From NCBI GenBank assembly GCA_046314355.1, contig JBKBWQ010000001.1:1024001-1088000 (forward strand): a stretch of DNA of 64,000 nucleotides, given 5' to 3'. The notes under the pieces were generated by a model. That model did no database searches. It saw nothing but the letters and a program-made list of their open reading frames with translations, and was not told where the DNA came from. Shown one piece after another: positions 16,617-45,671 of the stretch; position 1 is the stretch's first letter; every line of letters begins with the position of its first letter. Both the position numbers and the translations under genes were made by a program. Origin of the DNA: Candidatus Altimarinota bacterium (GTDB lineage: Bacteria > Patescibacteriota > Gracilibacteria > 1-14-2-50-48-13).

Positions 16617-19600
16617 CTATGTATCTCCATTCACTTTCTTTGCCTTTTCAATAAGAGTTGGATCAATACTTACAGTACGTTCGGATTCATATACAGCATT
16701 TACAGTAAGGGGTCCTAAGAGTGCAGTCGTCATTCCAAGTCCCATTGCGCCGTATCCACCTGCTTTTATAGCAGCTTTATTCCCATTTGCAAAGGCATAC
16801 AATTCTTCTGCTACTCTCTTCCACCCCACACGCTCAGCAACCTTAGCGATTCTTGGCCATTCATGCTGCAACTTTAATGCAAGTTTACCCATTACCCCCT
16901 CAGTCTTTGCAATTTTTTGTATTTTTGCGTACATATTTAATCCTAAACTTGCTCCACCTGTCACCGGTGCACCAACTAGAGAAACTGTATCAAGCGCAAA
17001 TCCGGCTGTTGCCCACAGTCCGCTGGCTACCTGCTCCATTCCTGTCATTTCTCTCCCTGTCACAAGCTGTTTTCCACTAACAGCGCTATAAAGACTAGAG
17101 AGTGCTCCAACATACAGCGGACAAATATCTACAGCAAACTGTGCGATATCCCATCTTGAAACTCCTGAGAATACTTCTGTAAATATTTGCTGAGGAGTTT
17201 CTTCTATCTGTCCTTTTTCAGGACTTGCAAAAGTATTATATGCAATCTTTCCTGTAGCTTCTAAGCTCTTCATTCCTACAAACAACATAGTTGCTTTCAC
17301 TCCTGAGAGAGCGATTGAATGCGGTCCAACAAGAGAAATCTTTGTCGCAAATTTCTTTCGATTATCTAATATCTTTCCAAACTCTTCAGCTAGTTCTGAT
17401 GTTTTTAGGTCTTTAGGGAGATTTTTATGCTGTTCAAATAGGAGAGCAAGAAGAGGATTTTTCTTCTGCTGCACTTTTTTGACTTCTTCTTCCACCATGG
17501 TAGAGATCTTCTTTCTCACCTCATAGCTATCCTTTACACCTCCCTCCTGTTGATGTAGTCGTACAAACTCAGCAGTTTTCTCCTGGATTATCTTTTCAGC
17601 AGCTCTTTCAAATGTATCTAACTCCTGGATAGTACTTTTCATGAGAGTAACTTTCTCAGTATGATTTGGTAGTGCATCAAACTGTTGTTTCGTTACATTT
17701 AGCTTTTGATTGTCATACGCAGTTGAAGAAGTATCGATTTTCCCCATATTTTTTGCAGTCTCTACATTTTTTGTATTCAGTTCCACTTGTTTTGCTTCTA
17801 AAGCTGTAACATCGATATTTGCTTTTTTATTTTTTCCAATTTCTTTTTGCAGCTTATGTTGTTTTGCAAGCTGGTTAATATAGTTCCGTTCTTTTTGAAT
17901 TTGCTCTTCTAATGCCGTGATGATTCTTTCCCTATTTTCAGGTGTGACATCTTTAAGATTAAGTTTTTCTAGCATTTCTTTCGCATGAGGAACAGTCTCT
18001 AGAGATTCACGAGCTGCATCATAAAAAGTGCTACTAAATAGTATCTTCATTTCAGCTTGTCGTAAGTACTGAATAGATTCGTACATTTTCGTAATATTAT
18101 TTCTGCTACTCGCAATCTTTGGATCAGTCATATTCATTTTTGATCCAGCTCTTGATGCTATTTCTCTTACTGTTTCTACATGTTTTTTACTCCAGACGCT
18201 CAGTCTATCACGAGGATTTTTTAGAATACGGTCAAATTCTCTATTCATAAGCGGTGCTAGCATATGTCGGCGCATAATTTCTTCTACTTCTATAAATCCA
18301 GTAATAGGATATGTTGCCATCTGCGTTAGTATTTTTGCTTTTGTTGCAAATTTTACCCCAGAAGGTTTACCGCCTAGAAGTCCAACAGTTACAGATTTGG
18401 CTGCTACCAATGTTGTAGTTCCTAACGCAAATACAGCAACTGGTACAGCACCATTTGCAAGATCTATAAAATACTGGGTATAGTTTGCATCTTGTCCTTT
18501 CATATAATTCCCAAAGGCTTTGAAAGCACCTAAAGTAAGATTTAAAGGACCAAAAAAGTATGTCTGGCTTGCTCCTTCAAACATCCACTCGGTTCCTATT
18601 AGAATTACTCGCCCAGTTCCACTCTTTAACTTTTCAAAGATAGTCTTTCCAAGCTCTTCTTCTGCTTCCTTAGGGCCTCTCATTGCTTTTTGCACATCTC
18701 CACCCATTTCTTTTACACGCTGCGTCATAAGGCCAAATATTTGAGTTTTTTCAATAGCTCCATACCCTGTGATGAAGTTTCTGGCTTTTTCATGTGCAGC
18801 AACCGCATCTAGAGTTGGATCCACACATATATTATACGGTCCTTCTGTCCATATCCCCTTAGCATCCTTTTTTCTAAAACGTACATATCCTTGCTCTGTA
18901 GTAATAGTACTCAAGGCATCAGCTTGCTCCAAAAGATCATGAAGATTTTCTACATCCTCTTTTTTAATTTTCTGTCCAAGTTTTTGAGTTTTTTCAACTT
19001 TCTCTAAAGCAGCTATGACAATTGCATACTTTGTATCTTCCAATAAATCCTGCTGATGTTTAAGATAATCTTTAAAGTTTCTTAAACCTAAAAGATTCTT
19101 TTCTTTCACTAGCTGCTCGGGAGAGTTAATAAGCAGATTTTCTGCAAGAATTTTTGCGAAATTTTTAGTTATGCTTTCAGGCTTTCCTAAATATTCTTCA
19201 AGTTTTTTATCTCTTGTTAAGATAGCAGTAATATCCTTCCACTCGTCCTCATCTGGAATATTATATCCTTGTTCCTGCATCCATTTTATGACATTTCCTT
19301 TCTCCTGATCAATTACTTTTTTTAGCTCTTTACTATCTTTTGGTAATAGAATTTCTTTAGAAAGAAAATATCCTGTCACACCAAATAAAGAGGTAAGACT
19401 GAGCTTATTGATAGTCAGCCAATCAAGTTTAGCTAGTTTTAATACAGGACCTGCAGAAAAGTCTAGACTGTTTTTACCTGCTGAAAAGGCTAATGCACGC
19501 AAAGAAGGAAAAACGATAAAAGCAGCAGCAGCAGTATCTGTATTTACTTTTAACCATGATCCAATAGGCGAGAGGGCCTTAGTAAGATCCTGTCCATAAT

Positions 19601-20837
19601 GTTTCAGAGCTTCAGCTGCTGGTACCTTTTCAATAGTATTATTAGAAATATTTACTGCACTTTGAGTATTTTTTGTTTCAGCAGTTGGGTTATTTACCAC
19701 TTCAGTTGTAGTGCTTTGTGTAGTTGGTAATAGTTTCATAATTGCCTCAGGTAAGCCAAATTTCTCAGCTATCTCTTTCTTTTCATCCTCAGTAAAATCA
19801 ATCTTTTTCTCCGCAAGTAACTGTGCAATACCTTTTCCTCCATCCTTTTTATATGCATTTGTAAATTCCTCTGGAGATACTTTTCCATCAAGTTTTTTGA
19901 TAAAAGTATCTGTAAGCTTATCTCCAAGCAAAGGCTTGAGTGTATTTTCCAGCACTACTTTCAAGGCTTTATCTCCAAAGAAGGAAGTCATCATTTCAAG
20001 AGGATTTTTCCCTGAAAGCATTGTAAGTCCTACAGCTCCGAGTACAGCACCTCCACCGATAAGCCATTTCCAAAATCCTCCATGTTCACTCTTCTCTTCT
20101 TTCTTGCTGCCAAAGAGTGAGGAGATGAATTTTACTGCACCATATACACCTAATCCTACTGCTGCCGTAGTCATAAGTGTACTTTTATTTTCAACTATTT
20201 TATCCCAGATACTTTTTTCAGCAGGAGGTAGCTCCACTTTCTTTTTTTGTAGAAGTGTATCATTATCTGCAATCTTTGCTTTTATGCTCACTGCTACTGC
20301 TACTCCTTTCTGTATCTGATCAATCAAAGGATTCCAATGATCAAATATAAGGCGTGCATTCTGTTTTTGTGCCTCAGTACCGCTAAGTAGATATCCATAT
20401 AGTGTCTGAAGTTTTCCATGAAGTCCTTTAGCTTTTTCAGAAAGTATATAATGCTCTTGAAGTGCAGGATCAAAGAAAAGTCCCCCAGCCTTTAGCTTGA
20501 GATCTTCAGGAGCTATAACATTGTCATTTATTGCTACAAGCTGATGAAGCAAAATAAACGTTTCCTTTTGAAATAATTCAAACTTCTTTTTTTCTTCTGG
20601 AAGTACGGGCACTTTATCAAAGGAAAGATCATCAAAATTAGATTCGATATCAACCTTTTGCTTCGTATCATTCTCTATTTCTTTACTCAGGATATCCATC
20701 TCTACTTTACTTCCAAGCGGTGCAAGCTCAGATTTTGTAGTAAGTTCCACTTGTCTCTGCGCGCTTTCCGCTTTTTGCGAAAGATCCTGATTTGGCACTT
20801 CTGCCTTATTGATATTTTTGTCCTGTTGGGAAGCCAT
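16617..20837 (-). CDS. large membrane-associated protein with C-terminal pre-toxin TG-like motif
   Basis: 1406 aa; Gly-rich hydrophobic helices and coiled coils; DICP..G..SLYSAVSGKQLVTGREMTGMEQ near the C-terminus. Confidence 0.65.
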   Translation of the reverse strand: MASQQDKNINKAEVPNQDLSQKAESAQRQVELTTKSELAPLGSKVEMDILSKEIENDTKQKVDIESNFDDLSFDKVPVLPEEKKKFELFQKETFILLHQLVAINDNVIAPEDLKLKAGGLFFDPALQEHYILSEKAKGLHGKLQTLYGYLLSGTEAQKQNARLIFDHWNPLIDQIQKGVAVAVSIKAKIADNDTLLQKKKVELPPAEKSIWDKIVENKSTLMTTAAVGLGVYGAVKFISSLFGSKKEEKSEHGGFWKWLIGGGAVLGAVGLTMLSGKNPLEMMTSFFGDKALKVVLENTLKPLLGDKLTDTFIKKLDGKVSPEEFTNAYKKDGGKGIAQLLAEKKIDFTEDEKKEIAEKFGLPEAIMKLLPTTQSTTTEVVNNPTAETKNTQSAVNISNNTIEKVPAAEALKHYGQDLTKALSPIGSWLKVNTDTAAAAFIVFPSLRALAFSAGKNSLDFSAGPVLKLAKLDWLTINKLSLTSLFGVTGYFLSKEILLPKDSKELKKVIDQEKGNVIKWMQEQGYNIPDEDEWKDITAILTRDKKLEEYLGKPESITKNFAKILAENLLINSPEQLVKEKNLLGLRNFKDYLKHQQDLLEDTKYAIVIAALEKVEKTQKLGQKIKKEDVENLHDLLEQADALSTITTEQGYVRFRKKDAKGIWTEGPYNICVDPTLDAVAAHEKARNFITGYGAIEKTQIFGLMTQRVKEMGGDVQKAMRGPKEAEEELGKTIFEKLKSGTGRVILIGTEWMFEGASQTYFFGPLNLTLGAFKAFGNYMKGQDANYTQYFIDLANGAVPVAVFALGTTTLVAAKSVTVGLLGGKPSGVKFATKAKILTQMATYPITGFIEVEEIMRRHMLAPLMNREFDRILKNPRDRLSVWSKKHVETVREIASRAGSKMNMTDPKIASSRNNITKMYESIQYLRQAEMKILFSSTFYDAARESLETVPHAKEMLEKLNLKDVTPENRERIITALEEQIQKERNYINQLAKQHKLQKEIGKNKKANIDVTALEAKQVELNTKNVETAKNMGKIDTSSTAYDNQKLNVTKQQFDALPNHTEKVTLMKSTIQELDTFERAAEKIIQEKTAEFVRLHQQEGGVKDSYEVRKKISTMVEEEVKKVQQKKNPLLALLFEQHKNLPKDLKTSELAEEFGKILDNRKKFATKISLVGPHSIALSGVKATMLFVGMKSLEATGKIAYNTFASPEKGQIEETPQQIFTEVFSGVSRWDIAQFAVDICPLYVGALSSLYSAVSGKQLVTGREMTGMEQVASGLWATAGFALDTVSLVGAPVTGGASLGLNMYAKIQKIAKTEGVMGKLALKLQHEWPRIAKVAERVGWKRVAEELYAFANGNKAAIKAGGYGAMGLGMTTALLGPLTVNAVYESERTVSIDPTLIEKAKKVNGDT

Positions 20838-33356: not shown

Positions 33357-34451
33357 TTATAAAAATTCTGCATACAATACTCCTTTCTTTTCTCCATGAA
33401 ATTCTTTCACAATTAATTGGAAATCTTCAAATCCTATTTCCATTGCTAGTTTTTCATATTCTATATAATCATCTTCTCTAAATTTATTTTTCACCTCAAA
33501 TGCCTGAGTTTTATTGAGTATAAAATCAATCTCTTTCCAATTTGTATGCATTGCGTACTCTAAGTGTCCATATTGCCGGAGCTGCAGAAATACCGCATTT
33601 TCAAATAGTGCTCCCTCATCTGGATGAGCAAACATCTTTAGAAGTCCTGTATCAAAAAAATATAGTTTTACCTGATCTGACTCTAGTCCTTGGTGTCTTC
33701 TTACAAGAAAAAACAGACCAGAGGCTTCAAGAAAATAGAGTATGGCTTCAAATTCTTCTTTCGTCATGTCTAGACTTAAAGATGCAAGTCCTATATCAAG
33801 AGGTTTTCCTACCCAGCGCAGTAAAAGAATAATAATACTTTTGATCTGCAAAGGAGAAATACCCGCTGTCTCCGCAAGTGTCCTTATTATTTTTCCTTCA
33901 ATCTCTTTTAAGCACATATCTTTTTCTTCGGGATTTTGTGATACTACTTCAGGCATACCTCCAAAAGTCATGTACTGCGTAAATAAAGCCTCAGCTGAAT
34001 ACATACTCTGCTTATTCAATATTTTGTTCCCATTAAGTAATTCTCGGAAGGAAAAAGGATGAAGCGTAAGAGATTCTACATTCAGAATATTCTCTGATAA
34101 TGGTGCTCTCGTAGCTGCAATGAAAGTCAAATTCTCCTTTTTATTTAAGAGAGTGTAGATCGAAGAAACATCTGCAAAATTATGAATATCATCTAACAAC
34201 ACAAGAAAATGGCGCGAACTTTGAAAGCCCACTTCTGATATTCTTTCAAGAAACAACAGTAATACCTCCCTGTCTTGTCTAGTCTTTAAAGAAAAGAACA
34301 CAACTTCCACTTTTTCTCGGTATAAGTCCATTATTATTTTCAGCAAAGTCGTTTTACCCACTCCCGGAAGACCATGAATAACTACAGACTTATTTGAAGA
34401 GAGGGATTTTTCAAGATATTTGAGAATATTCCGTTGAATGAAGGTCTGCAG
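33357..34451 (-). CDS. AAA_14/DUF4143 family ATP-binding protein
   Basis: Walker A HGLPGVGKTT (begins upstream of the called GTG), LLDDIH, YMTFGGMPE, KLYFFDTGL, GALFENAVF, EIDF; start proposed at CTG 34451. Confidence 0.8.
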   Translation of the reverse strand: MQTFIQRNILKYLEKSLSSNKSVVIHGLPGVGKTTLLKIIMDLYREKVEVVFFSLKTRQDREVLLLFLERISEVGFQSSRHFLVLLDDIHNFADVSSIYTLLNKKENLTFIAATRAPLSENILNVESLTLHPFSFRELLNGNKILNKQSMYSAEALFTQYMTFGGMPEVVSQNPEEKDMCLKEIEGKIIRTLAETAGISPLQIKSIIILLLRWVGKPLDIGLASLSLDMTKEEFEAILYFLEASGLFFLVRRHQGLESDQVKLYFFDTGLLKMFAHPDEGALFENAVFLQLRQYGHLEYAMHTNWKEIDFILNKTQAFEVKNKFREDDYIEYEKLAMEIGFEDFQLIVKEFHGEKKGVLYAEFL

Positions 34452-36987: not shown

Positions 36988-37033
36988 TGGAGCCGCCACG
37001 GAGGATTGAACTCCGGGCCTCGTCCTTACCAAG
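36988..37033 (-). pseudogene. 3' half of host tRNA-Thr(GGT), displaced by integration (att junction)
   Basis: Minus strand CTTGGTAAGGACGAGGCCCGGAGTTCAATCCTCCGTGGCGGCTCCA: intact T-arm, acceptor 3' strand and CCA. Confidence 0.9.
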
Positions 37034-37299
37034 TATAGAAGATAAAGAGAGAGTATAGATAGTGGCTCTGAAAGATACTAAGGATTAACTGAACATCAAA
37101 ATGTGTCATCGTGCTGGAGGACCACATCCAAGAATGAATGCATAGATGTTATCTTTTATGCAAAAATACTCAAGTTTTATTAAGAAGTGTTAGAATCAAG
37201 GGTAGTATTAATAACTACCATAATTGAATAGAGGAGCTACTTTTATGTTGTATCCTTCCTTTTTTCTTGCTACTATTCAACATATTTTTTATTCACTTT

Positions 37300-37491
37300 A
37301 TGGAATTTCTGCAAAACTTATTAAATGGTAACGAAGGAGTAATTGCCTTTTGCGGCATAATAATAACATTATTAGCTGGTGCTGGAGTTGTATGGTACTT
37401 GAAAAATAAACAAACTATAAAAAGTGGTAAAAAAAGTATAAATCAGCAAACCAATGTAGGAAATAATATAAATTCAGGAAATATTAAGTAA
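37300..37491 (+). CDS. 63-aa single-TM protein with C-terminal Q/N/S/G (amyloid-like) motif; putative effector
   Basis: TM VIAFCGIIITLLAGAGVVWYL followed by KQTIKSGKKSINQQTNVGNNIN; its stop overlaps the next start (TAATG). Confidence 0.75.
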   Translation: MEFLQNLLNGNEGVIAFCGIIITLLAGAGVVWYLKNKQTIKSGKKSINQQTNVGNNINSGNIK

Positions 37492-38054
37492 TGATATTCT
37501 CAAAACAATCCTCAGTATCAGGCGAAGGTTCCTTGACTCAACAAACTCAACAAGGGGACAATTATAGTTATAATAATTGTACCTTTTCTGGCGATGTAAA
37601 ACACGAACAAGAGGATTATGGAATAATTCAAGAAATTTTAGTTTATGCTTTAAGCAATATATCTGAAGGAGAAAATCCAATTGATGGTTACCTAAAGCTT
37701 AGAGATAAGATACAGCTAAATTTTCCTTCAGAAGATGAGCAAAAAATAGTAAATCAATATTTGACATGTGCATATATAAAATATCCGGCAATACAAGAGC
37801 AAATCAAATTGGCAGGTCCAGAAGTTGAGATACAGCTTCAAACACATATCTTTAGATTATATAGAAAATTATTTAAGGAAGGAAAAAATAATATTGATAT
37901 ACTTGAAGAGCTTTTTGACAATTTTGTATTGGTTGGAAAAAAACAGAACCCTGCTTATACTCAGATTGCTCAAGCATTTGTATTATTCTTCTTTGATGAC
38001 TGTACAATTTTTGAAAAAACTCCTCAGGATCAGCAATTAACTTTAAGTATGTAG
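37491..38054 (+). CDS. ABC-three-component (Lamassu LmuA-like) C-terminal-domain protein without an enzymatic effector
   Basis: KIQLNF and C-terminal FFFDDCTIFEK typical of ABC-3C CTDs; the N-terminus is only the ~30-aa motif KQSSVSGEGSLTQQTQQGDNY. Confidence 0.7.
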   Translation: MIFSKQSSVSGEGSLTQQTQQGDNYSYNNCTFSGDVKHEQEDYGIIQEILVYALSNISEGENPIDGYLKLRDKIQLNFPSEDEQKIVNQYLTCAYIKYPAIQEQIKLAGPEVEIQLQTHIFRLYRKLFKEGKNNIDILEELFDNFVLVGKKQNPAYTQIAQAFVLFFFDDCTIFEKTPQDQQLTLSM

Positions 38055-38055
38055 T

Positions 38056-38292
38056 ATGCTTATTCCATCAAAACATGAAGCACTTTCAAATAATACTTTA
38101 GTACTAGGCGCTCTAGTACTAAAAAAGATTAAAAAAGATACTTTTAATATTGAAGATCTATTTCAAAATCTCATCAAGTCAAATCTCATTTCACTTGATG
38201 ATTATTACGATACCCTTTCTTTTTTATGGTGTGCTGATTTGATTGAAGTTAAAAAATTACAAATAATCTTAAAAGAGAATGTTATTGCATAA
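38056..38292 (+). CDS. ABC-three-component middle component (LmuC-like)
   Basis: 78 aa, MLIPSKH..LVLGALVLK..IEDLF..DTLSFLW..DLIE pattern; lies between the CTD and ABC genes. Confidence 0.75.
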   Translation: MLIPSKHEALSNNTLVLGALVLKKIKKDTFNIEDLFQNLIKSNLISLDDYYDTLSFLWCADLIEVKKLQIILKENVIA

Positions 38293-40057
38293 ATTATATT
38301 TAGAACCACAAAGTTATTTTGAACCAATTGAGTTTAAATTGGGGTTTAATTTTATATATGCAAAGAAAGATCAAGCATCTGATAAAAAGAAATCACTAAA
38401 CGGAGTAGGAAAATCGTTATTATTAAACTTAATTGATTTTTGTCTACTTTCTTCAGAGACTGAGCATATTAAATCAGCAAAAAAGAATAATAACTTAGTA
38501 GGACACTATGTGGTACTAGAGTTTAGTGTTAATGGTGAGAATTATATTATTAAACGACCTTTCTATAAACCTAATCAATCTATTTTCTTTGGAAAGATTA
38601 ATGAAGAGTTATTAGAATATAAACACTCAGATGTACACAGAAACCTATCTCAGATGCTCTGTGATTTGATTTTTAAAACACCATATACAGGAAAATACTC
38701 AAATACATGGCTTAGAAAGTTGATGCCATTTTTCATGAAAATTCAATCAGGAAAAAATAAAGTTAACTTTAAGGATCCTATTAACTATCTGAGCTCAACA
38801 AAGGAAATGGAGCTTATTTCCTATCACTTATTTTTGTTAGGTATCGATAATAGCCTTTTTTTTAAGAACTTTGAAGTTATGTCCTTGCTTAAAGAAAAAA
38901 TACCCGCACTAGGGCAGGTAAAATCTTTGGTAACTGAATCATATGAGTTAGATGTTGATCAAGCTGAAAATGAAATCACAAAACTTAGGGGACAAATAAA
39001 AAAATTTGAAGATCAAATTGAAAAATTTAAACTAGCTAAACAGTATGAGAATGTTGAACAAGAAAGTAATGCTCTTACTGGGGAAATAAAGAAGTTACTT
39101 TTTGAGAACTATCAAACAAAGAAAAAAATTGAATCATATGAAGCAAGCTTTACTATTGATAACCATATCAATGTTACGAAAATTGCAAATGCATATAAGG
39201 ATTTAAATAAGCTATTAGCGGAAAATATTAAGAAGACACTAAATGAAGCAATTGCATTTCGTAAAAGCCTTGCTGAATCTAGAAAAGAATTTTTACGAGC
39301 AGAAATTAATGCTCTATTATTAGAATTGAAAGATAGAGAAGATCGTATGACAAAATTAGAGGAAGAAAGAGCTAGATTATTTCGTTTTCTTGATGCAGAC
39401 AAAGCAATTAATGAGTTGTCAGAAGCTTATTTAAATTTAGGTGAAAAGAAAACATACTTAGGAAAGATGGAAGGCACAATGAGAATTTATAGAGATCTCA
39501 AACGTGAAATTGCTGACCTAAATGCAAATGCTAATCAAATTTATGCAGAGATAGAAAGCCTCATGGATACTATTCAAATAACTTTAGATAGTTTTCGTTC
39601 ATTGTTCTTTGAAGTTCATGATGCTATATATACCGAAAACCCAGATCAGGCACAATTTATATTTAATACAAATCCTAAAAAAGACTCTAAATTAAATATT
39701 AACGTAGAATTACCCTCTGAGTTAGCATACGGAAAAAATAGAGGACGAACCTTAGTATATGATATCACCGTATTACTTCATCTAGTACAACAAAATATTA
39801 ATGCCCCTCATTTCTTAGTACATGACGGGATCTTTGATGGTATAGATAGATCACATTTTATTGCGCTCTATAATTATTTATCTACTAAGACCAAGGATTC
39901 TCAATTTCAATACATAATCACCTTTAATCAAGAAGGTACCGTAAAGGATCTAGATTTTGGTGAAGGTGCTGAAGAACTCACTACAAGACGCATTGAACAT
40001 GAAGCAATTATTACTTTGTCATCATCTAAACCTTTATTTGGGCATAAATGGAAGTAA
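38279..40057 (+). CDS. SMC-like ABC ATPase, DUF2326 family (Lamassu LmuB-like)
   Basis: Walker A NGVGKS, long coiled coil, degenerate signature YGKNRGR..YD, Walker B FLVHDG, QYIIT. Confidence 0.85.
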   Translation: MLLHKLYLEPQSYFEPIEFKLGFNFIYAKKDQASDKKKSLNGVGKSLLLNLIDFCLLSSETEHIKSAKKNNNLVGHYVVLEFSVNGENYIIKRPFYKPNQSIFFGKINEELLEYKHSDVHRNLSQMLCDLIFKTPYTGKYSNTWLRKLMPFFMKIQSGKNKVNFKDPINYLSSTKEMELISYHLFLLGIDNSLFFKNFEVMSLLKEKIPALGQVKSLVTESYELDVDQAENEITKLRGQIKKFEDQIEKFKLAKQYENVEQESNALTGEIKKLLFENYQTKKKIESYEASFTIDNHINVTKIANAYKDLNKLLAENIKKTLNEAIAFRKSLAESRKEFLRAEINALLLELKDREDRMTKLEEERARLFRFLDADKAINELSEAYLNLGEKKTYLGKMEGTMRIYRDLKREIADLNANANQIYAEIESLMDTIQITLDSFRSLFFEVHDAIYTENPDQAQFIFNTNPKKDSKLNINVELPSELAYGKNRGRTLVYDITVLLHLVQQNINAPHFLVHDGIFDGIDRSHFIALYNYLSTKTKDSQFQYIITFNQEGTVKDLDFGEGAEELTTRRIEHEAIITLSSSKPLFGHKWK

Positions 40058-40147
40058 CAACATACTCTATGGATAGATTTCAGTATATTCCTTAATATAC
40101 AAGTTGAGATATTAATATTCAGTCATGTAAGAGAACAGTATATGAAA

Positions 40148-40897
40148 TTATTGTGTTATGATGCAGGCTCGTGTTGAACCGTAGACACACTCTTGCTTAA
40201 GGTAGTCATAATACATAGGGCGAACTACAAGTGCGTAGAGAATACTCAATGTGATAATGACGCCGCAAATAAATACCCATAATGGTACAACTCGTTTTTT
40301 GTTAATGACAGATATCTTCTTAATTAAATCCTGAGACTTTGCTTTTAATTGAGGTAGTAAAGGAGGTTGACTCTTCTCTTCAGCAATAGGAATATTATTT
40401 TTTGCATAGTATGGATGTCGTAGACAGAAAATACTTCCTATAACTATCGCTATGTTAATTGCTCCTATGGGTCCACCGCCAGTGATAACAGTCCGAATAC
40501 ATTGATAGGCTATACTTAGCTTTAGAAATATTCTACTTCTCTTTCTGGTTATAAAAACTCCAACAATATCTAAAACAAAGAATGCTGTAGTAATCACAAT
40601 AAAGGTTGTCTTTGAACTTTCAGATATTCCTTTAAGATTTTGAAAAAAGTAAAGTCCTACAGCAAGTGTTAATATTCCAGAAATAAGGTAGGCAATACTC
40701 GTAAAAGTAGCTATACCCGGTAGAGTATTTTCATCTATGATTTTCTCCTCTTCTTTCTTTTTCTGAAATTCTTGGTTAATTTTCGATGCTGTTTCTTGAT
40801 TATATTCTTCACCTTTCATTTCTTCTCCACATTTCTGGCAGTATTGGTACTCATAGCTCTGTACATTGCCGCAGTGTAAGCATTTTTCTTCTTTCAT
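40148..40897 (-). CDS. membrane protein with N-terminal zinc ribbon
   Basis: CLHC..CQKC followed by about 5 TM helices. Confidence 0.7.
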   Translation of the reverse strand: MKEEKCLHCGNVQSYEYQYCQKCGEEMKGEEYNQETASKINQEFQKKKEEEKIIDENTLPGIATFTSIAYLISGILTLAVGLYFFQNLKGISESSKTTFIVITTAFFVLDIVGVFITRKRSRIFLKLSIAYQCIRTVITGGGPIGAINIAIVIGSIFCLRHPYYAKNNIPIAEEKSQPPLLPQLKAKSQDLIKKISVINKKRVVPLWVFICGVIITLSILYALVVRPMYYDYLKQECVYGSTRACIITQ

Positions 40898-40937
40898 AAA
40901 GTAGTTGATAAATAAGTAATTCAGCTAACCTATATTC

Positions 40938-41519
40938 CTAAAATAATTTCTGTGAATCATTTAAATTTGCTTCAAGAGCATCAGGTGACATATTGGCACG
41001 GAAATTCTCATCTTGCTTACACTTATGAGACGCATAGAGAAGATAAGCTCCTCCAAGTAAAAGAGTAATCAGTAGACCTATAGATTCTGTAATTCTTTGA
41101 TTTTCAAAAGAATCATTAAACTCTGAGTATGTACGTATGAGACCAAATATTCCTATCACGCACAGTACACACCATATAGCCTGAAGAACGAATGAAACAT
41201 TAGCCCATACATATCTTGTTCTGAAAAAACCTCGTGCTAATAATCCAAACACTACTGTAGCCGATAATGTTCCAATCATGTTCCAAACGTAAACTTCAAG
41301 TTTTGTGAGTATTCTCGAGGAAAGATCTACATTTTTAGGAAGAAAATTCCATTCTATTTGAACCTCTTTTCCTATATTAAAAAATATCCAAAGAAGGGAG
41401 AGAAAACTTATGATAGCAATTATCATATATACTATTCCCACTATTTTTGCCTCAATAGGAAGGGTCTTGAACTGTCTTCTCGCTGTTTTCGTTTCTGATG
41501 CTTTGAGGGTACTTGTCAT
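40938..41519 (-). CDS. hypothetical membrane protein (4 TM)
   Basis: Four hydrophobic helices; ATG at 41519. Confidence 0.7.
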   Translation of the reverse strand: MTSTLKASETKTARRQFKTLPIEAKIVGIVYMIIAIISFLSLLWIFFNIGKEVQIEWNFLPKNVDLSSRILTKLEVYVWNMIGTLSATVVFGLLARGFFRTRYVWANVSFVLQAIWCVLCVIGIFGLIRTYSEFNDSFENQRITESIGLLITLLLGGAYLLYASHKCKQDENFRANMSPDALEANLNDSQKLF

Positions 41520-41566
41520 AAAAAAACCTGTAAGAAATAATATACAGGATTGGTAGGATAGCAAAA

Positions 41567-41716
41567 GCGGGACTACCTCGCCTGGCTACCCGTTCTTACT
41601 TTGCATTACACAAAGCAGTTTACGGCAGGGAGATAGCCCCACCTGTGGTGTAAACTGTTGTGTATGCACGGACGAATAATCGTCGTGAATGCGATTTGTA
41701 AGTAAAAACGGGTAGC
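41567..41716 (-). ncRNA. structured leader RNA / riboregulator candidate
   Basis: Nested inverted repeats (41585-41600 with 41701-41716, plus inner stems); starts ~7 nt after a promoter. Confidence 0.55.
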
Positions 41717-41722
41717 ACAAAC

Positions 41723-41751
41723 ATAATACCGTCTAAGATGTATATCATCAA
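41723..41751 (-). promoter_or_regulatory. promoter driving the structured leader and membrane genes
   Basis: Minus strand TTGATG-N17-TATTAT. Confidence 0.55.
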
Positions 41752-41834
41752 GTCTAATATCAGAGTTGTTTTTTTACGGGGCTATACTAGTATCTATAAA
41801 GAAGTCACCGGCATGATTTTTAACGCCACTGAAT

Positions 41835-42191
41835 ATGTGTATTGCTCTAAAGAAAGATGATACGAAATGCAAAGGTAGCTCAATGCTGGGATCGGAATAT
41901 TGTTTCTTCCACAATCCGGATATTAGTAAGAAGGAAAGAAAGCAAGCTCAAGCCAAAGGAGGTAGAAATAGACGAAGTAAAGTAACATCGCCTCTGAAAC
42001 CTATGTCACTACATTCCTCAAAGGATGTAGCTCACCTACTCTCAGATACCATTAATCAAGTGCGAATAGGACAAATGGATGTCAAAGTGGCAAATTGCCT
42101 GGGAATATTAAGCAATCATCTTCTGAGAGCCTTCGAAGGAGTAGAGTTAGAAAGAAGAGTTCAAGCGTTGGAGAATTTACATACTTCATAA
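41835..42191 (+). CDS. small protein with C-x10-C-x10-C-x2-H zinc knuckle and helical C-terminus
   Basis: CIALKKDDTKC..YCFFH, KGG motif, ELERRVQALE; pattern common in phage/satellite small proteins. Confidence 0.65.
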   Translation: MCIALKKDDTKCKGSSMLGSEYCFFHNPDISKKERKQAQAKGGRNRRSKVTSPLKPMSLHSSKDVAHLLSDTINQVRIGQMDVKVANCLGILSNHLLRAFEGVELERRVQALENLHTS

Positions 42192-42196
42192 TCACT

Positions 42197-42412
42197 ATGT
42201 CTACAATCAGCACTCGTATTAAAAAACTTGAAAAAATAGTGGCAGACCAGTCCAAGAATAGGGTAGAAATCATCGAATATTACGCCTATAAGGTGCCTAT
42301 ATATTATGTTCACAAGAATATAGCTTACTCTTCTCTTGAAGAGTGTAGAGAGCAAAATAAAGCTGTTCTTCAGGGAGCCTCAGAGATCCTACTTATTAAT
42401 TTTGCCGATTAA
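42197..42412 (+). CDS. hypothetical protein
   Basis: 71-aa ORF MSTISTRIKKLEK in a tightly packed operon. Confidence 0.55.
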   Translation: MSTISTRIKKLEKIVADQSKNRVEIIEYYAYKVPIYYVHKNIAYSSLEECREQNKAVLQGASEILLINFAD

Positions 42413-42415
42413 AGT

Positions 42416-43456
42416 ATGAGTACCCCCACACCCCCATTACTAAGTAAGCCTCTGCATTATTATGAAGCAGAACACAAGACACTCATGGTTGCTTGGCATT
42501 TATTGAGAAATGGTATCGAAGATGAGTTCTATCAAGAAAGTTTTGTTCATCTTGAAAATCATACCTTTATGAGTGCCTCAGATATTGCTGAAGCTATCAG
42601 TAATCTTACCTCATACGGAGGAATTGAAGAGTTCAAGTACCAACTTTTTCCTGTAGGAGATAGGCAAACTCATTACCCTGAGGAGCATCTGGACCATACA
42701 AAACTCTATGAGCTCATAACTAATGAAAAGAACCCACAGCTGAATATATGGGAATCCTTCATCAAGGTAGATCATATAACCTTGTATACTATCAAAATTA
42801 ATAAGGAAGGACTTATTAATTATATGGAGCGTTATGTAGACCTATGGAGAGCAAATCGTTATAGGATCCATGGCAAGAATACTCTTTCTGCTGATATCCA
42901 ATTACGTTCTGTCTTAAAAGACATCTTTGTATATATAGACAGAAATAAGGCACAATACTATTTACCCATTGATGAAGAGATGCTCATTGATACCTTTGCG
43001 GTCCTTATTTTTCTTGAATATGAAGGAGCTATCACTATTCATACACTCCTCCAGAATCCTCAAGGAAAGCTCACAGCGCATATATCACGACGAGGGAATT
43101 TTTCTAAAAAAACATCTATTCACAATGGAAAAATCTACCATGGCTTTTCCATAGATACTCCAGGGCAAGAAAAAATACGTCTAACTTCACCATATAGGCT
43201 AATATATAAGGGCATTATTCGTTCACTTTTTAAGGATAAGCGCAGTACAGCACTAATTCACAATACGCTATCTAACGAATTATTCAGTATAGACATAGAA
43301 ACATTTATTAAATTATCAGGAGAGAATCCTTTAAATCTACGCAAGGATATTGATAAGTTTCAACATGACGTTAGAGAAAAGTTTAAAATCGCCGAACCAC
43401 TGATAAAAGTATCTCAAACTAACATTACCCTGAATAATAAATACTGGGGGTTTTAA
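42416..43456 (+). CDS. hypothetical protein
   Basis: 346-aa ORF, no clear motif. Confidence 0.65.
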   Translation: MSTPTPPLLSKPLHYYEAEHKTLMVAWHLLRNGIEDEFYQESFVHLENHTFMSASDIAEAISNLTSYGGIEEFKYQLFPVGDRQTHYPEEHLDHTKLYELITNEKNPQLNIWESFIKVDHITLYTIKINKEGLINYMERYVDLWRANRYRIHGKNTLSADIQLRSVLKDIFVYIDRNKAQYYLPIDEEMLIDTFAVLIFLEYEGAITIHTLLQNPQGKLTAHISRRGNFSKKTSIHNGKIYHGFSIDTPGQEKIRLTSPYRLIYKGIIRSLFKDKRSTALIHNTLSNELFSIDIETFIKLSGENPLNLRKDIDKFQHDVREKFKIAEPLIKVSQTNITLNNKYWGF

Positions 43457-43529
43457 AAAGGGGATATATTAGGGGATATTTAGTTTTTTTGAATGGAGTA
43501 TATTCCGCACAAGAAATAATATCACCTCT

Positions 43530-44570
43530 ATGAAACTGAATACTCTTATACAGCTTTTCCCTCAAGATGAGTGGGATAAATACCATGTAATGGTCACTCA
43601 GGGACAAACTCCTCTTTGGAAATACTGGGAAGAGTATGTTACGAGACAACTAGACTTGGGAGGTTCTATGCAAACACTTCAGAACGTCCGCAGTACAATG
43701 CAATTTATTGTAAGACACATGAATATATATAGCATTGAAGAATGTAATAATCAAAATACATTTGAAGATCGATTAATTGATGTGAAGAAGGAAAGAAGAC
43801 ACTCAGGAAGTACTACTAATACAATCTTGAAAAATATAAAAACATACTTTATATGGTTACGCAGAAGAGAATACATACTTGAAAATAAATTGGATTTAGT
43901 CCAGAAGTCTAAAACTGTGAAAAATGCACAAGTAGCCTTCTCAAAAGAACAAGTATTGTATATTCAAGAAGCGATATTGAATCAAACGCATACACCTTTA
44001 ATAACAATGCGTAATTTCCTATTTATAAAACTTCTTGCTCTAACAGGTGCACGCCCAAGTGAACTCCTTAACCTGAAAGCTTCATCACTAGAGAAAACGT
44101 CTATAGGAGATTACGTCTTAAAAATCACTGGAGTAAAACAGATTACAAAACCAAGAGTATATCATATCAAAGATCTTATCTTTGCCCAAATATTTGAAAG
44201 CTATATGAGTCATCGTGCCAAAATAGGTCGTAGTGATGAGGCATTATTTATATCGTCCTCTATGAAAGGACCGTGGACATATCAAGGATTACGAAAACTC
44301 TTTGCTAGTATTGCAAAAAAAGTAGGTTTTCAGGTGACTGCTTACGGTTTCAGAAGATATGTGGCAACAAATCTTCATACCCAAAGACTTCCAATTGAAA
44401 AAATTGCTCAGCACCTAGGACACACTCGTTTATCTACTACGATGCTGTATATCCAAAATAGTACTGAGCATACTTTAGAAGCAATGACTATGTTAGAATC
44501 GAATTTAATGAGTGCATCTCCACTGACTTTGCCATCTGCATATTCGAACAAGAAAGATAAATGGTTGTAG
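43530..44570 (+). CDS. tyrosine recombinase/integrase (variant YxxR)
   Basis: TGARPSE, YGFRR, LGH, TTMLY. Confidence 0.88.
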   Translation: MKLNTLIQLFPQDEWDKYHVMVTQGQTPLWKYWEEYVTRQLDLGGSMQTLQNVRSTMQFIVRHMNIYSIEECNNQNTFEDRLIDVKKERRHSGSTTNTILKNIKTYFIWLRRREYILENKLDLVQKSKTVKNAQVAFSKEQVLYIQEAILNQTHTPLITMRNFLFIKLLALTGARPSELLNLKASSLEKTSIGDYVLKITGVKQITKPRVYHIKDLIFAQIFESYMSHRAKIGRSDEALFISSSMKGPWTYQGLRKLFASIAKKVGFQVTAYGFRRYVATNLHTQRLPIEKIAQHLGHTRLSTTMLYIQNSTEHTLEAMTMLESNLMSASPLTLPSAYSNKKDKWL

Positions 44571-45402
44571 TAGTGATCCTCGCATGCCCCATAAGTTTTG
44601 AAAGAGTATAAATATCACATCCTCCTTCCAGCATAAGTCTGGCAAAAGCATGGCGTAGTGTGTGAGCTGAGAAAGGTATCTTCAATCGTTCACGAATAAC
44701 TTTAATGTTATTTGTAATCGCTCTTTTCGTTATTCCTAGGTCTTTCTGTACCGCTGTAAAAAAGAAAATGGAACTCTTCTTCAGACGATTCCTGTCCTTT
44801 AGATATTCTTCTAGAATGCTACATAGCTTCATATTCATAGGTATCATTCGATCCTTTGATCCCTTCCCCTGATGAATAAAGATAGTTCTGCTTTCAAATG
44901 ATACATCATGCAGCTTCAAGTGAACCACTTCAGAGATTCGGAGACCTGCTAAAAGCATCAATGCAAGCATCGCCCTGTTCCTGAATTTCTCAAACTTATA
45001 CGGGTACTTCATATGATAAGACATATCAAGAATAAGTGTACTCTCCTCCTTCGTAAGAGTCTTTGGCAACCTCTGTTCCATCTTTGGGAGCTCTATATCC
45101 GCAAGGATATTTTTCTCTACGATACTCTCTTTCACTAGCCACTTAAAAAAGGCATTAAATCGCTTGTGGTAGTGTCGGAAGGTTGCGGAGGTCCATTTAC
45201 GCTCTAGTCGTCCATGAAAGAACCATGCCTCAAATAAAGGCTTTGTAAGTTCTTCAAGATAAACTACCTTTGTTGAGCTCACAAAGTAGCGAAAGATTTC
45301 TCTGTAGCTTTTAATTGTTTCAGGTGCATAATTCCGAATACATACGCAATACTGCAAGTAGCGCTCAAGCAGGTTTTTAAGATCTGTTTTTTGTCCGTAC
45401 AT
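44488..45402 (-). CDS. tyrosine recombinase/integrase (XerC/D-like)
   Basis: AGLRISE, GKGSKDR, HTLRH, LMGH, TTTIY; ATG at 45402. Confidence 0.93.
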   Translation of the reverse strand: MYGQKTDLKNLLERYLQYCVCIRNYAPETIKSYREIFRYFVSSTKVVYLEELTKPLFEAWFFHGRLERKWTSATFRHYHKRFNAFFKWLVKESIVEKNILADIELPKMEQRLPKTLTKEESTLILDMSYHMKYPYKFEKFRNRAMLALMLLAGLRISEVVHLKLHDVSFESRTIFIHQGKGSKDRMIPMNMKLCSILEEYLKDRNRLKKSSIFFFTAVQKDLGITKRAITNNIKVIRERLKIPFSAHTLRHAFARLMLEGGCDIYTLSKLMGHARITTTTIYLSCSNMQMAKSVEMHSLNSILT

Positions 45403-45445
45403 TAAAAAGAAGAGAAGAAATATAATCTTCACTCTTGAATAGACC

Positions 45446-45520
45446 TGGAGCCACCGGAGGGACTTGAACCCTCGACCTACCCCTTACCATGGGGTTGCTC
45501 TACCACTGAGCTACGACGGC
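45446..45520 (-). tRNA. tRNA-Thr(GGT), complete, inside the element
   Basis: GCCGTCG-TA-GCTC AGTGGTA GAGC-A-ACCCC ATGGTAA GGGGT-AGGTC-GAGGG TTCAAGT CCCTC-CGGTGGC-T-CCA. Confidence 0.95.
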
Positions 45521-45552
45521 ATTTGATGCTTTCATGACTACTTACACAGGAG

Positions 45553-45581
45553 AGGATACTCTGGACTTAGTAAAAAGTCTA
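45553..45581 (-). promoter_or_regulatory. element-internal promoter for the replacement tRNA (and downstream integrase)
   Basis: Minus strand TAGACT-N17-TATCCT. Confidence 0.55.
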
Positions 45582-45631
45582 TGTTATCCTTTACCGCTAG
45601 CCATTATCCGAGAAATCAGCAGAGGACCACA

Positions 45632-45671
45632 TCCTTACCAAGGACGCGCTCTACCACTGAGCTATGACGGC
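45632..45671 (-). pseudogene. 5' half of host tRNA-Thr(GGT) (att junction)
   Basis: GCCGTCATAGCTCAGTGGTAGAGCGCGTCCTTGGTAAGGA; its stems pair with the 3' half at 36988-37033. Confidence 0.9.

What the first reader, a model, noticed from the sequence alone, without database searches (positions are those of the whole stretch)
36988..45671. Element splits host tRNA-Thr at the anticodon and supplies a different full-length replacement tRNA
Seen: the 5' half (45671-45632) and 3' half (37033-36988) rejoin through the 11-bp core CTTGGTAAGGA into a perfect tRNA-Thr(GGT), with anticodon stem CGTCC/GGACG and acceptor GCCGTCA/TGGCGGC. The element does not restore a working 3' half at the junction. About 110 nt inside, it carries a complete tRNA-Thr(GGT) with different stems (ACCCC/GGGGT; GAGGG/CCCTC) and its own TAGACT-N17-TATCCT promoter. 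Established: tRNA-targeting integrases normally rebuild the target by duplicating its 3' part. Inference: this is whole-gene replacement, which makes the element's end needed unless excision is precise.
Basis: partly seen in the sequence, partly recalled or inferred. Interest (0 to 1): 0.75.

Follow-up and report, generated by a model that had tools for sequence, protein, structure and literature searches.

The report
Island splits tRNA-Thr, brings its own
An 8.6-kb mobile island has cut the threonine tRNA gene of an ultra-small (Peregrinibacteria/CPR) bacterium in two without repairing it and carries a complete spare copy instead, a trick already proven for some phages of actinobacteria but seen here in a non-phage island family with two recombinases.

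Summary
The two tRNA-Thr(GGT) halves (45671-45632 and 37033-36988, minus strand) share an 11-bp core found only twice in the window. Joined in a script, they give a canonical tRNA. Between them lies an 8.6-kb low-GC island carrying a different complete tRNA-Thr(GGT), which is the only one in the 1.69-Mb genome. It also carries two convergent Xer-like tyrosine recombinases and a PDC-M68/ABC-3C defence candidate.

The layout is a family trait. Of 39 related genome loci, 25 show 5' half, ~110-nt spacer, full tRNA-Thr(GGT), then int1; 9 more metagenome loci do too. Distal 3' halves pair with their own 5' halves (14 of 17 pairs at 12/12, against 6% for non-cognate pairs). Junctions confine the crossover to TGGTAAG (U33-G39).

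Eleven island-free relatives carry one intact gene, not a tandem pair. The integrase is patchy (17 of 201 class genomes) and has no close relative in viral contigs.

The mechanism matches "tRNA-dependent lysogeny" (Guerrero-Bustamante and Hatfull 2024), so the principle is known. New here are the host phylum, the non-phage island, the attP-adjacent tRNA and the recombinase pair.

This scan has already noted the same family on other genomes.

The parts
45632..45671 (-). 5' half of the interrupted host tRNA-Thr(GGT): acceptor 5' strand, D arm, anticodon-stem 5' strand and anticodon loop. Includes the left core copy at 45632-45642.
   Evidence: Sequence. nhmmer with a tRNA-Thr(GGT) profile matches model positions 1-72, E 1e-11. 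It pairs 12 of 12 with the distal 3' half.
36988..37033 (-). 3' half of the interrupted host tRNA-Thr(GGT), from the anticodon loop to CCA. Includes the right core copy at 37023-37033.
   Evidence: Sequence. nhmmer matches model positions 30-76, E 1.6e-7. The joined gene is accepted by ARAGORN.
37034..45631 (.). Integrated island, about 8.6 kb, bounded by the two 11-bp core copies. GC is 0.29-0.33 over 37500-41000, against 0.38 for the contig.
45446..45520 (-). Island-borne complete tRNA-Thr(GGT) with encoded CCA. It is the only tRNA-Thr(GGT) in the genome.
   Evidence: ARAGORN; RF00005 67.1 bits; genome-wide nhmmer.
45521..45631 (-). Right arm of attP plus spacer (111 nt). It starts with the conserved motif and then has a GGCTA block in the register of a tRNA 3' end. 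It may be a decayed tRNA 3' half. No terminator-like site lies between the host 5' half and the island tRNA.
   Evidence: Alignment of 26 arms; RF00005 34.4 bits over 45599-45671 with the T arm missing; PWM test mean z 1.1, 5 of 26 with z>2.
45622..45634 (-). 13-nt motif GGATGTGGTCCTC, copy B, directly after the anticodon loop at the left junction. Probably a recombinase-binding site (inferred).
   Evidence: The motif occurs exactly twice in the 1.69-Mb genome.
37117..37129 (-). 13-nt motif GGATGTGGTCCTC, copy A, 98 nt upstream of TGGTAA in the other attP arm.
   Evidence: The same placement (-97 to -99) is seen in 11 of 14 loci.
44488..45432 (-). int1: Xer-like tyrosine recombinase with an intact catalytic R..K..HxxR..H..Y set. 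The database form is 304 aa, so the start is probably at the ATG 30 nt inside this ORF.
   Evidence: Pfam Phage_integrase 2.9e-34. NCBIfam XerD model 182.9 bits, below its 329.6 cut-off. Invariant residues.
43530..44570 (+). int2: second tyrosine recombinase, convergent with int1 and overlapping it by 83 nt.
   Evidence: Pfam Phage_integrase 2.7e-20. A homologue lies on the opposite strand downstream of int1 in 30 of 39 loci. R, K, R, H and Y are invariant in 12 sequences.
37491..40057 (+). Cargo: candidate defence system PDC-M68 / ABC-3C. ORF 37491-38054 is PDC-M68A-like, 38056-38292 is MC6-like (below cut-off), and 38279-40057 is an ABC ATPase with DUF2326 (PDC-M68B).
40148..43456 (.). Cargo ORFs with no family assignment: 40148-40897 (-), 40938-41564 (-), 41835-42191 (+), 42416-43456 (+).
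   Evidence: No Pfam, PADLOC, PHROGs or NCBIfam assignment above cut-offs. None is found in the 39 related loci.

Best explanation
An 8.6-kb integrative island (37034-45631) entered the host's single tRNA-Thr(GGU) gene by tyrosine-recombinase site-specific recombination. Its attP shares only the anticodon-loop segment with the target. In this copy the shared core is 11 bp; across the family only TGGTAAG (U33-G39) is shared by every core. Because attP has no usable tRNA 3' half, the host gene stays split into two dead halves. The island makes up for this with its own complete tRNA-Thr(GGU), which lies 111 nt inside the left junction in the same orientation as the interrupted gene and directly upstream of int1. 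The conserved backbone is tRNA, int1 and a convergent int2; the rest is variable conflict or defence cargo, here PDC-M68/ABC-3C. The likely consequences are inferred. First, the island can enter any host whose tRNA-Thr(GGU) has the invariant loop, with no need for matching stems. Second, any loss of the island other than precise excision removes the only decoder of ACY codons. Shown by sequence: the split, the cores, the replacement gene, the family-wide architecture and the patchy distribution. Inferred: that int1 and/or int2 catalyse the event, that the island tRNA is expressed and needed, and that this copy can still move.
For: The split and core are. The island tRNA is the only Thr(GGT) gene among 39 tRNAs, and genome-wide nhmmer finds no other. 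ACC plus ACT make up 49.6% of Thr codons in 568 long ORFs. Family architecture: a tRNA-Thr(ggt) ends 14-138 nt upstream of the int1 homologue in 27 of 39 loci. A 5' half lies about 150 nt upstream of that tRNA in 25 of 39 loci, and in 9 of 19 new metagenome loci that have at least 300 nt upstream. Fourteen of 17 cognate 5'/3' half pairs are fully complementary (12/12), against 6.2% of 643 non-cognate pairs. In 0 of 17 does the host 5' half pair fully with the island tRNA's 3' strands. Cores are 9-13 bp in 18 loci, and their intersection is TGGTAAG. The conserved 13-nt motif has a second copy at -98. int2 is present in 30 of 39 loci, and no other window cargo is shared. int1 is patchy: 17 of 201 class genomes, 0 of 3 same-family genomes. 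Eleven of 11 island-free relatives have a single intact gene. Phage involvement was not found: apart from integrase families, PHROGs gave only function-unknown matches (3 further ORFs) and no phage structural genes, and the best viral-contig relatives are 22-25% identical over most of the protein. An experimental precedent for the mechanism exists (PMC10865867; abstract and sections 5, 6, 10, 11 read).
Against: There is no direct evidence of mobility for this copy. The only run holding the region is kept as contigs, is probably the source of the assembly, and shows no joint across the island. No close island-free relative with the same flanks exists in the collections: the same-family genomes do not even match the flanking Ham1 protein. 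The empty site is therefore inferred, not seen. Expression and need of the island tRNA are untested, and a tRNA-Thr(UGU) is present that might read ACY codons if its U34 is suitably modified or unmodified. No convincing promoter was found. Two loci have imperfect half pairing (L029 and L034, 11/12), and one (L099) has a non-cognate, decayed 3' half.
Confidence: 0.85

Rival explanations
1. Same origin, but this copy is now a fixed, immobile relic. The island tRNA has simply become the host's tRNA-Thr(GGU) gene and the recombinases no longer move the element.
For: No excision or empty-site evidence was found. Some related loci show decay, namely a truncated 5' half in L100 and a degenerate 3' half in L099, so fixation does occur in the family.
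Against: Both recombinase ORFs are intact with catalytic residues. The two 11-bp cores and the two 13-nt motif copies are identical. The halves are still 12/12 complementary. All of this points to a recent insertion or a maintained one.
Confidence: 0.2
2. The complete tRNA is a host gene. The host had two tandem tRNA-Thr(GGT) genes and the element inserted into the upstream one.
For: The two genes lie only 151 nt apart start to start, and their 5' 40 nt are 85% identical.
Against: The complete tRNA lies between the two core copies, so it is inside the insert. The same tRNA-int1 linkage recurs in 27 of 39 loci with unrelated flanks. Eleven of 11 island-free relatives have one gene.
Confidence: 0.04
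3. The junction still yields a working tRNA: the host 5' half plus the island arm forms an unusual T-armless tRNA, and the island tRNA is merely an extra copy.
For: RF00005 scores 45599-45671 at 34.4 bits, above its gathering score, with 6 of 7 acceptor pairs.
Against: The T arm is entirely absent: 18 model positions are replaced by 20 unaligned nt. ARAGORN rejects the sequence. The arm sequence belongs to the element and is conserved across hosts with different acceptor stems.
Confidence: 0.02
4. Assembly artefact: repeated tRNA sequence caused a chimeric join.
For: This is a metagenome-derived genome with 28 contigs. The only spanning contig in public runs may come from the same data.
Against: The region lies inside a 1.62-Mb contig. 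The repeat is only 11 bp. The same architecture appears in dozens of independent assemblies, including complete chromosomes.
Confidence: 0.02

Closest known systems
tRNA-dependent lysogeny of actinobacteriophages (Fionnbharth K4, LeBron and other Cluster L, Cain K6, Gaia X, Gordonia CQ2/DL phages; Guerrero-Bustamante & Hatfull, mBio 2024, PMC10865867; abstract and sections 5, 6, 10, 11 read)
   Same: A tyrosine recombinase targets a host tRNA gene. The common core is only 8-17 bp (11 bp here), so the tRNA is not rebuilt. The element carries a tRNA of the same anticodon. The host has a single gene of that anticodon. Close relatives of the same integrase family use the classical tRNA-rebuilding mode: Boilgate and Ximenita there; L036 and L101 here.
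   Different: The element here is not a phage. PHROGs found no phage structural genes, only integrase and function-unknown families, and viral contigs hold no close integrase relatives. It is a 5-11 kb island with defence-type cargo. The host is a CPR bacterium and the target is tRNA-Thr(GGU). The recombinases are short and Xer-like, without a lambda-type arm-binding domain (the paper describes its integrases as lambda-like), and they come as a conserved convergent pair. The replacement tRNA sits between the attP core and int1, co-oriented with the broken gene, whereas in Fionnbharth it lies elsewhere, overlapping gene 37. Nothing has been tested experimentally here.
Classical tRNA/tmRNA-targeting genomic islands, anticodon-loop sublocation (Islander database paper PMC4383910, abstract seen in a search listing; Williams 2002 recalled, not read)
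   Same: The integrase gene lies next to a tRNA gene, the crossover is in the anticodon loop, a displaced 3' fragment marks the far end, and the cargo is variable.
   Different: The defining restoration of the target by island sequence does not occur. An extra dead 5' half remains upstream, and the tRNA next to the integrase is wholly island-derived.
Prophage Lj965 of Lactobacillus johnsonii and actinophage RP3 of Streptomyces rimosus
   Same: Both are reported not to rebuild the target tRNA while carrying a cognate tRNA. For Lj965 this is as cited in the discussion of PMC10865867. For RP3 only the title was seen, in a reference list; its content is recalled and the paper is not held.
   Different: Both are phages, each is a single case, and the hosts and tRNAs differ.
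Earlier notes of this scan on other genomes
   Same: Islands that split tRNA-Thr(GGT) in the anticodon loop, carry a replacement tRNA and have two recombinases, in Patescibacteria genomes.
   Different: They lie on other DNA. They are unchecked AI notes and do not count as independent evidence.

Membership tests
tRNA-dependent lysogeny / integration (Guerrero-Bustamante & Hatfull 2024) | The attB site overlaps a host tRNA gene, and a tyrosine integrase is encoded by the element. | tested here: met
   A split tRNA-Thr(GGT) flanks the island. Two Phage_integrase-family genes lie inside it. Catalysis itself is not testable here.
tRNA-dependent lysogeny / integration (Guerrero-Bustamante & Hatfull 2024) | The common core is short (about 10 bp), so no functional tRNA is rebuilt at a junction. 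| tested here: met
   The core is 11 bp. ARAGORN finds no tRNA at either junction. The junction lacks the T arm. Family cores are 9-13 bp.
tRNA-dependent lysogeny / integration (Guerrero-Bustamante & Hatfull 2024) | [quoted passage not shown] | tested here: met
   tRNA-Thr(ggt) at 45446-45520.
tRNA-dependent lysogeny / integration (Guerrero-Bustamante & Hatfull 2024) | The disrupted host tRNA is single-copy and essential, so the element tRNA is required for survival. | tested here: inconclusive
   Single copy is shown, and ACY codons are 49.6% of Thr codons. Essentiality and complementation cannot be tested with these tools.
tRNA-dependent lysogeny / integration (Guerrero-Bustamante & Hatfull 2024) | The element is a temperate phage (lysogeny). 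| tested here: not met
   Apart from integrase families, PHROGs gave only function-unknown matches (3 further ORFs) and no phage structural genes. The element is 8.6 kb. In viral contigs, the 21 relatives found are at best 22-25% identical over most of the protein.
Classical tRNA-targeting genomic island (anticodon-loop class) | Island sequence restores the disrupted tRNA gene. | tested here: not met
   By contrast, relatives L036 and L101 have 45-46-bp identical 3'-half repeats and no dead 5' half.
Classical tRNA-targeting genomic island (anticodon-loop class) | The crossover is within the anticodon loop, flanked by the anticodon stem. | tested here: met
   Junction comparison limits the exchange to TGGTAAG, U33-G39.
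XerC/XerD chromosome-dimer resolvases | Equivalog-level match and near-universal single-copy presence in related genomes. | tested here: not met
   int1 scores 182.9 bits against a cut-off of 329.6 for XerD, and int2 scores 66.9. int1 relatives are in 17 of 201 class genomes.
ABC-3C / PDC-M68 candidate defence system (cargo) | An ABC-type ATPase with DUF2326, plus a middle component and a third gene. | tested here: inconclusive
   PDC-M68B 2.5e-68 and DUF2326 8.8e-21 are clear. MC6 scores 24.0 bits, below its 27.2 cut-off. PDC-M68A is weak at 5.2e-6.

The most novel reading that the evidence does not exclude
The tRNA-int1-int2 cassette is a self-propagating gene-replacement module that keeps overwriting the tRNA-Thr(GGU) gene of Peregrinibacteria and Gracilibacteria. 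Each arrival kills the resident copy, whether native or from an earlier island, and makes itself indispensable, so the lineage's tRNA-Thr(GGU) is inherited horizontally together with defence cargo. Three observations fit this. The attP arm looks like the fossil of a tRNA 3' half, which would fit an origin by capture of a whole tRNA through aberrant excision. Elements pile up at the site, as in the G019 chromosome. Some island tRNAs also carry a structured ~210-nt insertion exactly within the crossover segment TGGT|AAG; this could shield them from the next invader while still allowing a mature tRNA after splicing.
Probability: 0.2. Interest if true: 0.7.

Novelty: new variant of a known kind. 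Interest (0 to 1): 0.5.

Why it matters
The finding extends "break the tRNA and bring your own" from a handful of actinobacteriophages to a widespread family of non-viral defence islands in the candidate phyla radiation. These organisms have minimal tRNA sets, so the loss of one gene cannot be buffered.

The layout suggests two pay-offs. The island depends only on an invariant 7-nt loop segment rather than on the host's tRNA stems, which should broaden its host range. It is also protected against deletion. Both ideas can be tested with an attP-int1-int2 plasmid carrying or lacking the tRNA.

The finding matters for annotation as well. Island finders that expect a rebuilt tRNA plus a 3' fragment will set the boundary of these islands about 150 nt too far in. 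They will also take the island's tRNA for the host's.

Tried and rejected
1. Excision or empty-site evidence. One public run holds the region. It is kept as contigs and may be the source of the assembly. One contig spans 36500-46200 with no differences and no joints. Other pieces are tRNA fragments of other organisms. This says nothing either way.

2. Synteny with close relatives. The three same-family genomes gave no match to the flanking Ham1 protein. DNA of the left flank matched relatives only over the tRNA part. The tRNA list of those genomes was not followed up.

3. Close copies of this particular island. A single-protein scan of metagenome contigs found none.

4. Int1-Int2 complex prediction gave no verdict (score 0.00, controls not run). 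It is not used as evidence.

5. A -35-like box is only partly conserved.

6. Fossil 3'-half test. The PWM score was higher than the shuffle mean for 21 of 26 arms, but the signal is weak (mean z 1.1) and the rows are related. The random-genome control of that script crashed on an N and was not repeated.

7. Rfam found no family for the insertion in the tRNAs of L025 and L119, so "group I intron" remains my recollection of sequence motifs, not a result.

8. Archaeal origin, suspected from the absence of tmRNA, was rejected: the bacterial SSU model scores 1451.7 bits against 985.2 for the archaeal model.

9. A housekeeping Xer role for int1, suspected from its many 55-60% identical homologues, was rejected by its patchy distribution and sub-cut-off scores.

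10. Literature. No paper in the held library was found that describes this family in CPR bacteria. The RP3 paper is not held. Supplements of PMC10865867 were not consulted.


Full report
OBSERVATION. On the minus strand the window reads as follows: a tRNA 5' half (45671-45632), an island, then a tRNA 3' half (37033-36988). The two pieces overlap in CTTGGTAAGGA, which occurs only at these two places in 64 kb. Chance expectation is 0.04, and 0 of 100 shuffles gave two copies. I joined the pieces by coordinates in a script, and ARAGORN called the product a 75-nt tRNA-Thr(ggt) with a 7-bp acceptor stem and a 5-bp anticodon stem. On the window as it stands, ARAGORN finds no tRNA at either junction. 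It finds one complete tRNA-Thr(ggt) at 45446-45520, 111 nt inside the left junction, with different stems. Infernal gives that gene 67.1 bits. It still gives the left junction (45599-45671) 34.4 bits, but only by skipping the whole T arm. The junction is a tRNA-like remnant, not a tRNA.

THE ORGANISM. The window lies in a 1.62-Mb contig of a 1.69-Mb, 38% GC genome. The SSU rRNA fits the bacterial model better than the archaeal one, 1451.7 against 985.2 bits. Homologues and related loci are named Peregrinibacteria, Gracilibacteria or Patescibacteria by their depositors.

THE TARGET GENE. ARAGORN finds 39 tRNA genes. Only one is Thr(ggt), the island's. There is one Thr(tgt) and no Thr(cgt). A tRNA-Thr(GGT) profile run over the whole genome finds nothing further apart from the two halves. 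ACC and ACT make up 49.6% of threonine codons in 568 ORFs of at least 300 aa.

THE ISLAND (37034-45631). GC drops to 0.29-0.33 over 37500-41000. From the left junction, the parts are these.
- A 111-nt arm and spacer, then the tRNA.
- int1 (44488-45432, minus strand; Phage_integrase 2.9e-34).
- int2 (43530-44570, plus strand; 2.7e-20), convergent with int1 and overlapping it.
- Four ORFs with no family assignment.
- A three-gene candidate defence system: PDC-M68B/DUF2326 ATPase (2.5e-68), an MC6-like small gene below its cut-off, and a weak PDC-M68A match.

PHROGs gives integrase families for int1 and int2, and function-unknown families for three other ORFs. Both recombinases are short and Xer-like, and both fall far below the XerC/XerD equivalog cut-offs. 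The flanks are ordinary genes: Ham1 and topoisomerase I on one side, an alpha/beta hydrolase on the other.

IT IS A FAMILY TRAIT. A search with int1 returned 796 homologues. One is 81% identical and the rest are at most 64%.

An alignment-based scan of one genome per species gave 80 loci. I analysed 39 of them, L015-L050, L052, L053 and L056. I left out three fragments (L051, L054, L055) and the distant rows L057-L094.
- A tRNA-Thr(ggt) ends 14-138 nt upstream of the int1 homologue in 27 of the 39.
- A profile search for tRNA pieces shows a 5' half (model positions 1 to about 43) roughly 150 nt upstream of that tRNA in 25 of the 39. A 3' half (positions about 30-76) lies 5-11 kb downstream wherever the 10-kb flank reaches it.
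- The other 14 are as follows. L025 has a 5' half plus a tRNA carrying an insertion. L053 has a 5' half and int1, with the tRNA 3.8 kb inside. L036 is classical. L021 and L027 have a 3' half followed by int1. L038 has a truncated tRNA. L039, L041 and L042 are other or truncated cases. L044 and L046-L049 are the Bacteroidota and proteobacterial outgroup, which lie next to other tRNAs or none.

A second scan, of metagenome contigs, gave 80 loci. I examined 36 of them (L095-L129 and L168). Five duplicate earlier loci. Of the 31 new ones, 19 have at least 300 nt upstream of int1, and 9 of those show the 5' half plus full tRNA. A tenth, L100, has a truncated 5' half that I saw by eye. Some rows are near-duplicates of one another: L026/L110, L024/L103, L052/L056 and L101/L102.

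THE HALVES BELONG TOGETHER. In 14 loci including the window there are 17 5'/3' half pairs. Fourteen of them pair at all 12 stem positions (acceptor 7 plus anticodon 5), although the stem sequences differ from locus to locus. Among 643 non-cognate combinations, 6.2% do so. In none of the 17 does the host 5' half pair fully with the 3' strands of the island's tRNA. The exceptions are L029 and L034 (11/12), the inner 3' half of L023, which belongs to another tRNA, and, among four further loci, L099, whose 3' half is decayed. The island tRNA is therefore a different gene from the one it replaces. A classical host-5'/island-3' chimera would have mismatched stems.

WHERE THE STRANDS CROSS. The identity blocks between the two junctions are 9-13 bp in 18 loci. 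Their intersection is TGGTAAG, U33 to G39. L016 and L031 fix the left limit and L017 fixes the right limit. This heptamer is present in all 33 aligned tRNA-Thr(GGT) genes.

OTHER attP FEATURES. Directly after the loop, every island arm carries GG(A/G)TGT(A/G)C(C/T)CCTC. A second direct copy of each island's own version lies 97-99 nt upstream of TGGTAA in the other arm in 11 of 14 loci. It has 0 mismatches in 5 of them, including the window. An alignment of 22 such arms shows the block in every row that reaches it, together with a GGCT-N6-AGCC palindrome at about -45. In this genome the 13-mer occurs only at these two places. I take these to be recombinase-binding sites, which is an inference.

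BACKBONE AND CARGO. A homologue of int2 lies on the opposite strand downstream of int1 in 30 of 39 loci, and one more has a fragment at a contig end. Of the 8 without one, 4 are outgroup rows and 3 end just after int1. None of the window's other nine island ORFs, and none of three flanking proteins, is found in any of the 39 loci. I scanned ten large cargo proteins from nine related islands. They include an Eco57I/MmeI-type restriction-modification enzyme, a KAP NTPase, a PLD nuclease, an SF1 helicase, an SMC-like ATPase, an AAA_14/DUF4143 protein and a secreted nuclease; three had no match. The conserved module is thus tRNA-int1-int2, and the rest is variable conflict-type cargo.

IS IT MOBILE, AND IS THE tRNA THE HOST'S? 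Relatives of int1 at E <= 1e-40 occur in 17 of 201 genomes sampled across the class. They occur in none of the three same-family genomes. This is a patchy distribution, unlike that of a housekeeping Xer. In 11 of 11 class relatives fetched through the tRNA match, there is one intact tRNA-Thr(GGT), no 5' half, and no int1 or int2 within 1.5 kb. The caveat is that these genomes belong to other families and share no synteny. No evidence of excision could be obtained.

WHAT IS KNOWN. Guerrero-Bustamante and Hatfull (mBio 2024, PMC10865867; I read the abstract and sections 5, 6, 10 and 11) showed experimentally that several actinobacteriophage groups integrate into a tRNA gene through an 8-17-bp core. 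These phages do not rebuild the tRNA, and they need a phage-encoded tRNA of the same anticodon for lysogens to survive. Close relatives use the classical tRNA-rebuilding mode. The authors cite prophage Lj965 as a possible case outside the actinobacteria.

The window shows the same logic, including the coexistence of both modes in one integrase family. L036 and L101 have 45-46-bp identical 3'-half repeats and no dead 5' half. In a 54-row int1 tree they fall in two different well-supported places inside a 49-row CPR clade that is otherwise dominated by the replacing layout. The tree is rooted at the midpoint only, so the order of events is open.

The window differs from the phage systems in five respects.
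- There are no phage structural genes and no close relatives in viral contigs.
- The host is a CPR bacterium.
- The recombinases are a conserved convergent pair of short Xer-like enzymes.
- The replacement tRNA lies between the attP core and int1, co-oriented with the broken gene. In Fionnbharth it lies elsewhere.
- No terminator-like site separates the host 5' half from the island tRNA, so read-through from the host tRNA promoter is possible. That is an inference.

My searches of the held library found no description of this family in CPR bacteria. This scan has noted the same kind of island on at least eight other genomes. Those are unchecked notes and I do not count them as evidence.

ORIGIN HINT (WEAK). 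The island arm after the core has the length of a tRNA 3' half and ends in GGCTA where a tRNA has GGCTCCA. Infernal pairs it 6 of 7 with the host acceptor strand. A position-weight test scores 21 of 26 arms above the mean of their shuffles, but only modestly (mean z 1.1; 5 of 26 above 2), and the rows are related. This would fit an ancestor that rebuilt the tRNA and later captured a whole gene, but it is not established.

VERDICT. The promoter detail is not supported. The principle is already known from phages. The element type, the host phylum, the module layout and the recombinase pair make this a new variant of that kind.

Noticed in passing
L025:9724-9930 and L119:9681-9894: In two related loci the island-borne tRNA-Thr(GGT) carries a 207/214-nt insertion in the anticodon loop, after GGT and before AA. 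It begins after a T and ends in G. It folds well (z -3.5 against shuffles), and the two copies show 7 compensatory double changes among 54 predicted pairs. Rfam gives no match even at E<=1. It interrupts TGGT|AAG, the family's crossover segment. It may be a self-splicing intron that also blocks further integration.
   Followed up: partly
L025:9538-9579 with L027:9936-9985 (one complete 1.93-Mb chromosome, G019): A 5' half pairs by eye (acceptor GCCGCCT/AGGCGGC, anticodon stem CTCCC/GGGAG) with a 3' half about 20 kb away. That 3' half is followed directly by a second int1/int2 pair, so two family members sit in tandem at one tRNA. The two int1 genes are sister rows in the tree.
   Followed up: partly
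L036:3779-3853 with 12687-12731; L101:2380-2455 with 7737-7783: Members of the same integrase family use the classical mode. They have a full tRNA next to int1, a 45-46-bp identical 3'-half repeat at the far end, and no dead 5' half.
   Followed up: yes
L039 (Wenzhouxiangellaceae MAG, 3.6-Mb chromosome) and L047 (Rhodospirillales MAG): int1/int2 pairs 50% and 39% identical to the window's int1 occur in records labelled Pseudomonadota. L039 lies near a tRNA-Thr(GGT) with a 93% identical 3'-half repeat. L047 lies next to tRNA-Val(GAC). This is either cross-phylum spread or mis-binned contigs.
   Followed up: no
L023:9678-9725 and 10715-10774; L024:17070-17117 and 19705-19752; L037:18664-18710 and 19228-19274: Several loci have two 3' halves in series at the far end. 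In L023 only the outer one matches the 5' half. This looks like remnants of earlier or tandem insertions.
   Followed up: partly
window 33357-34361 (-): An AAA_14/DUF4143 ATPase gene lies about 2.6 kb outside the island. The same domain pair appears as cargo inside the related island of L015 (11037-12476).
   Followed up: no
whole genome G000: ARAGORN finds no tmRNA gene and no tRNA-Thr(CGT) among 39 tRNAs in a genome rated 98% complete. Introns and unusual forms were not searched for.
   Followed up: no
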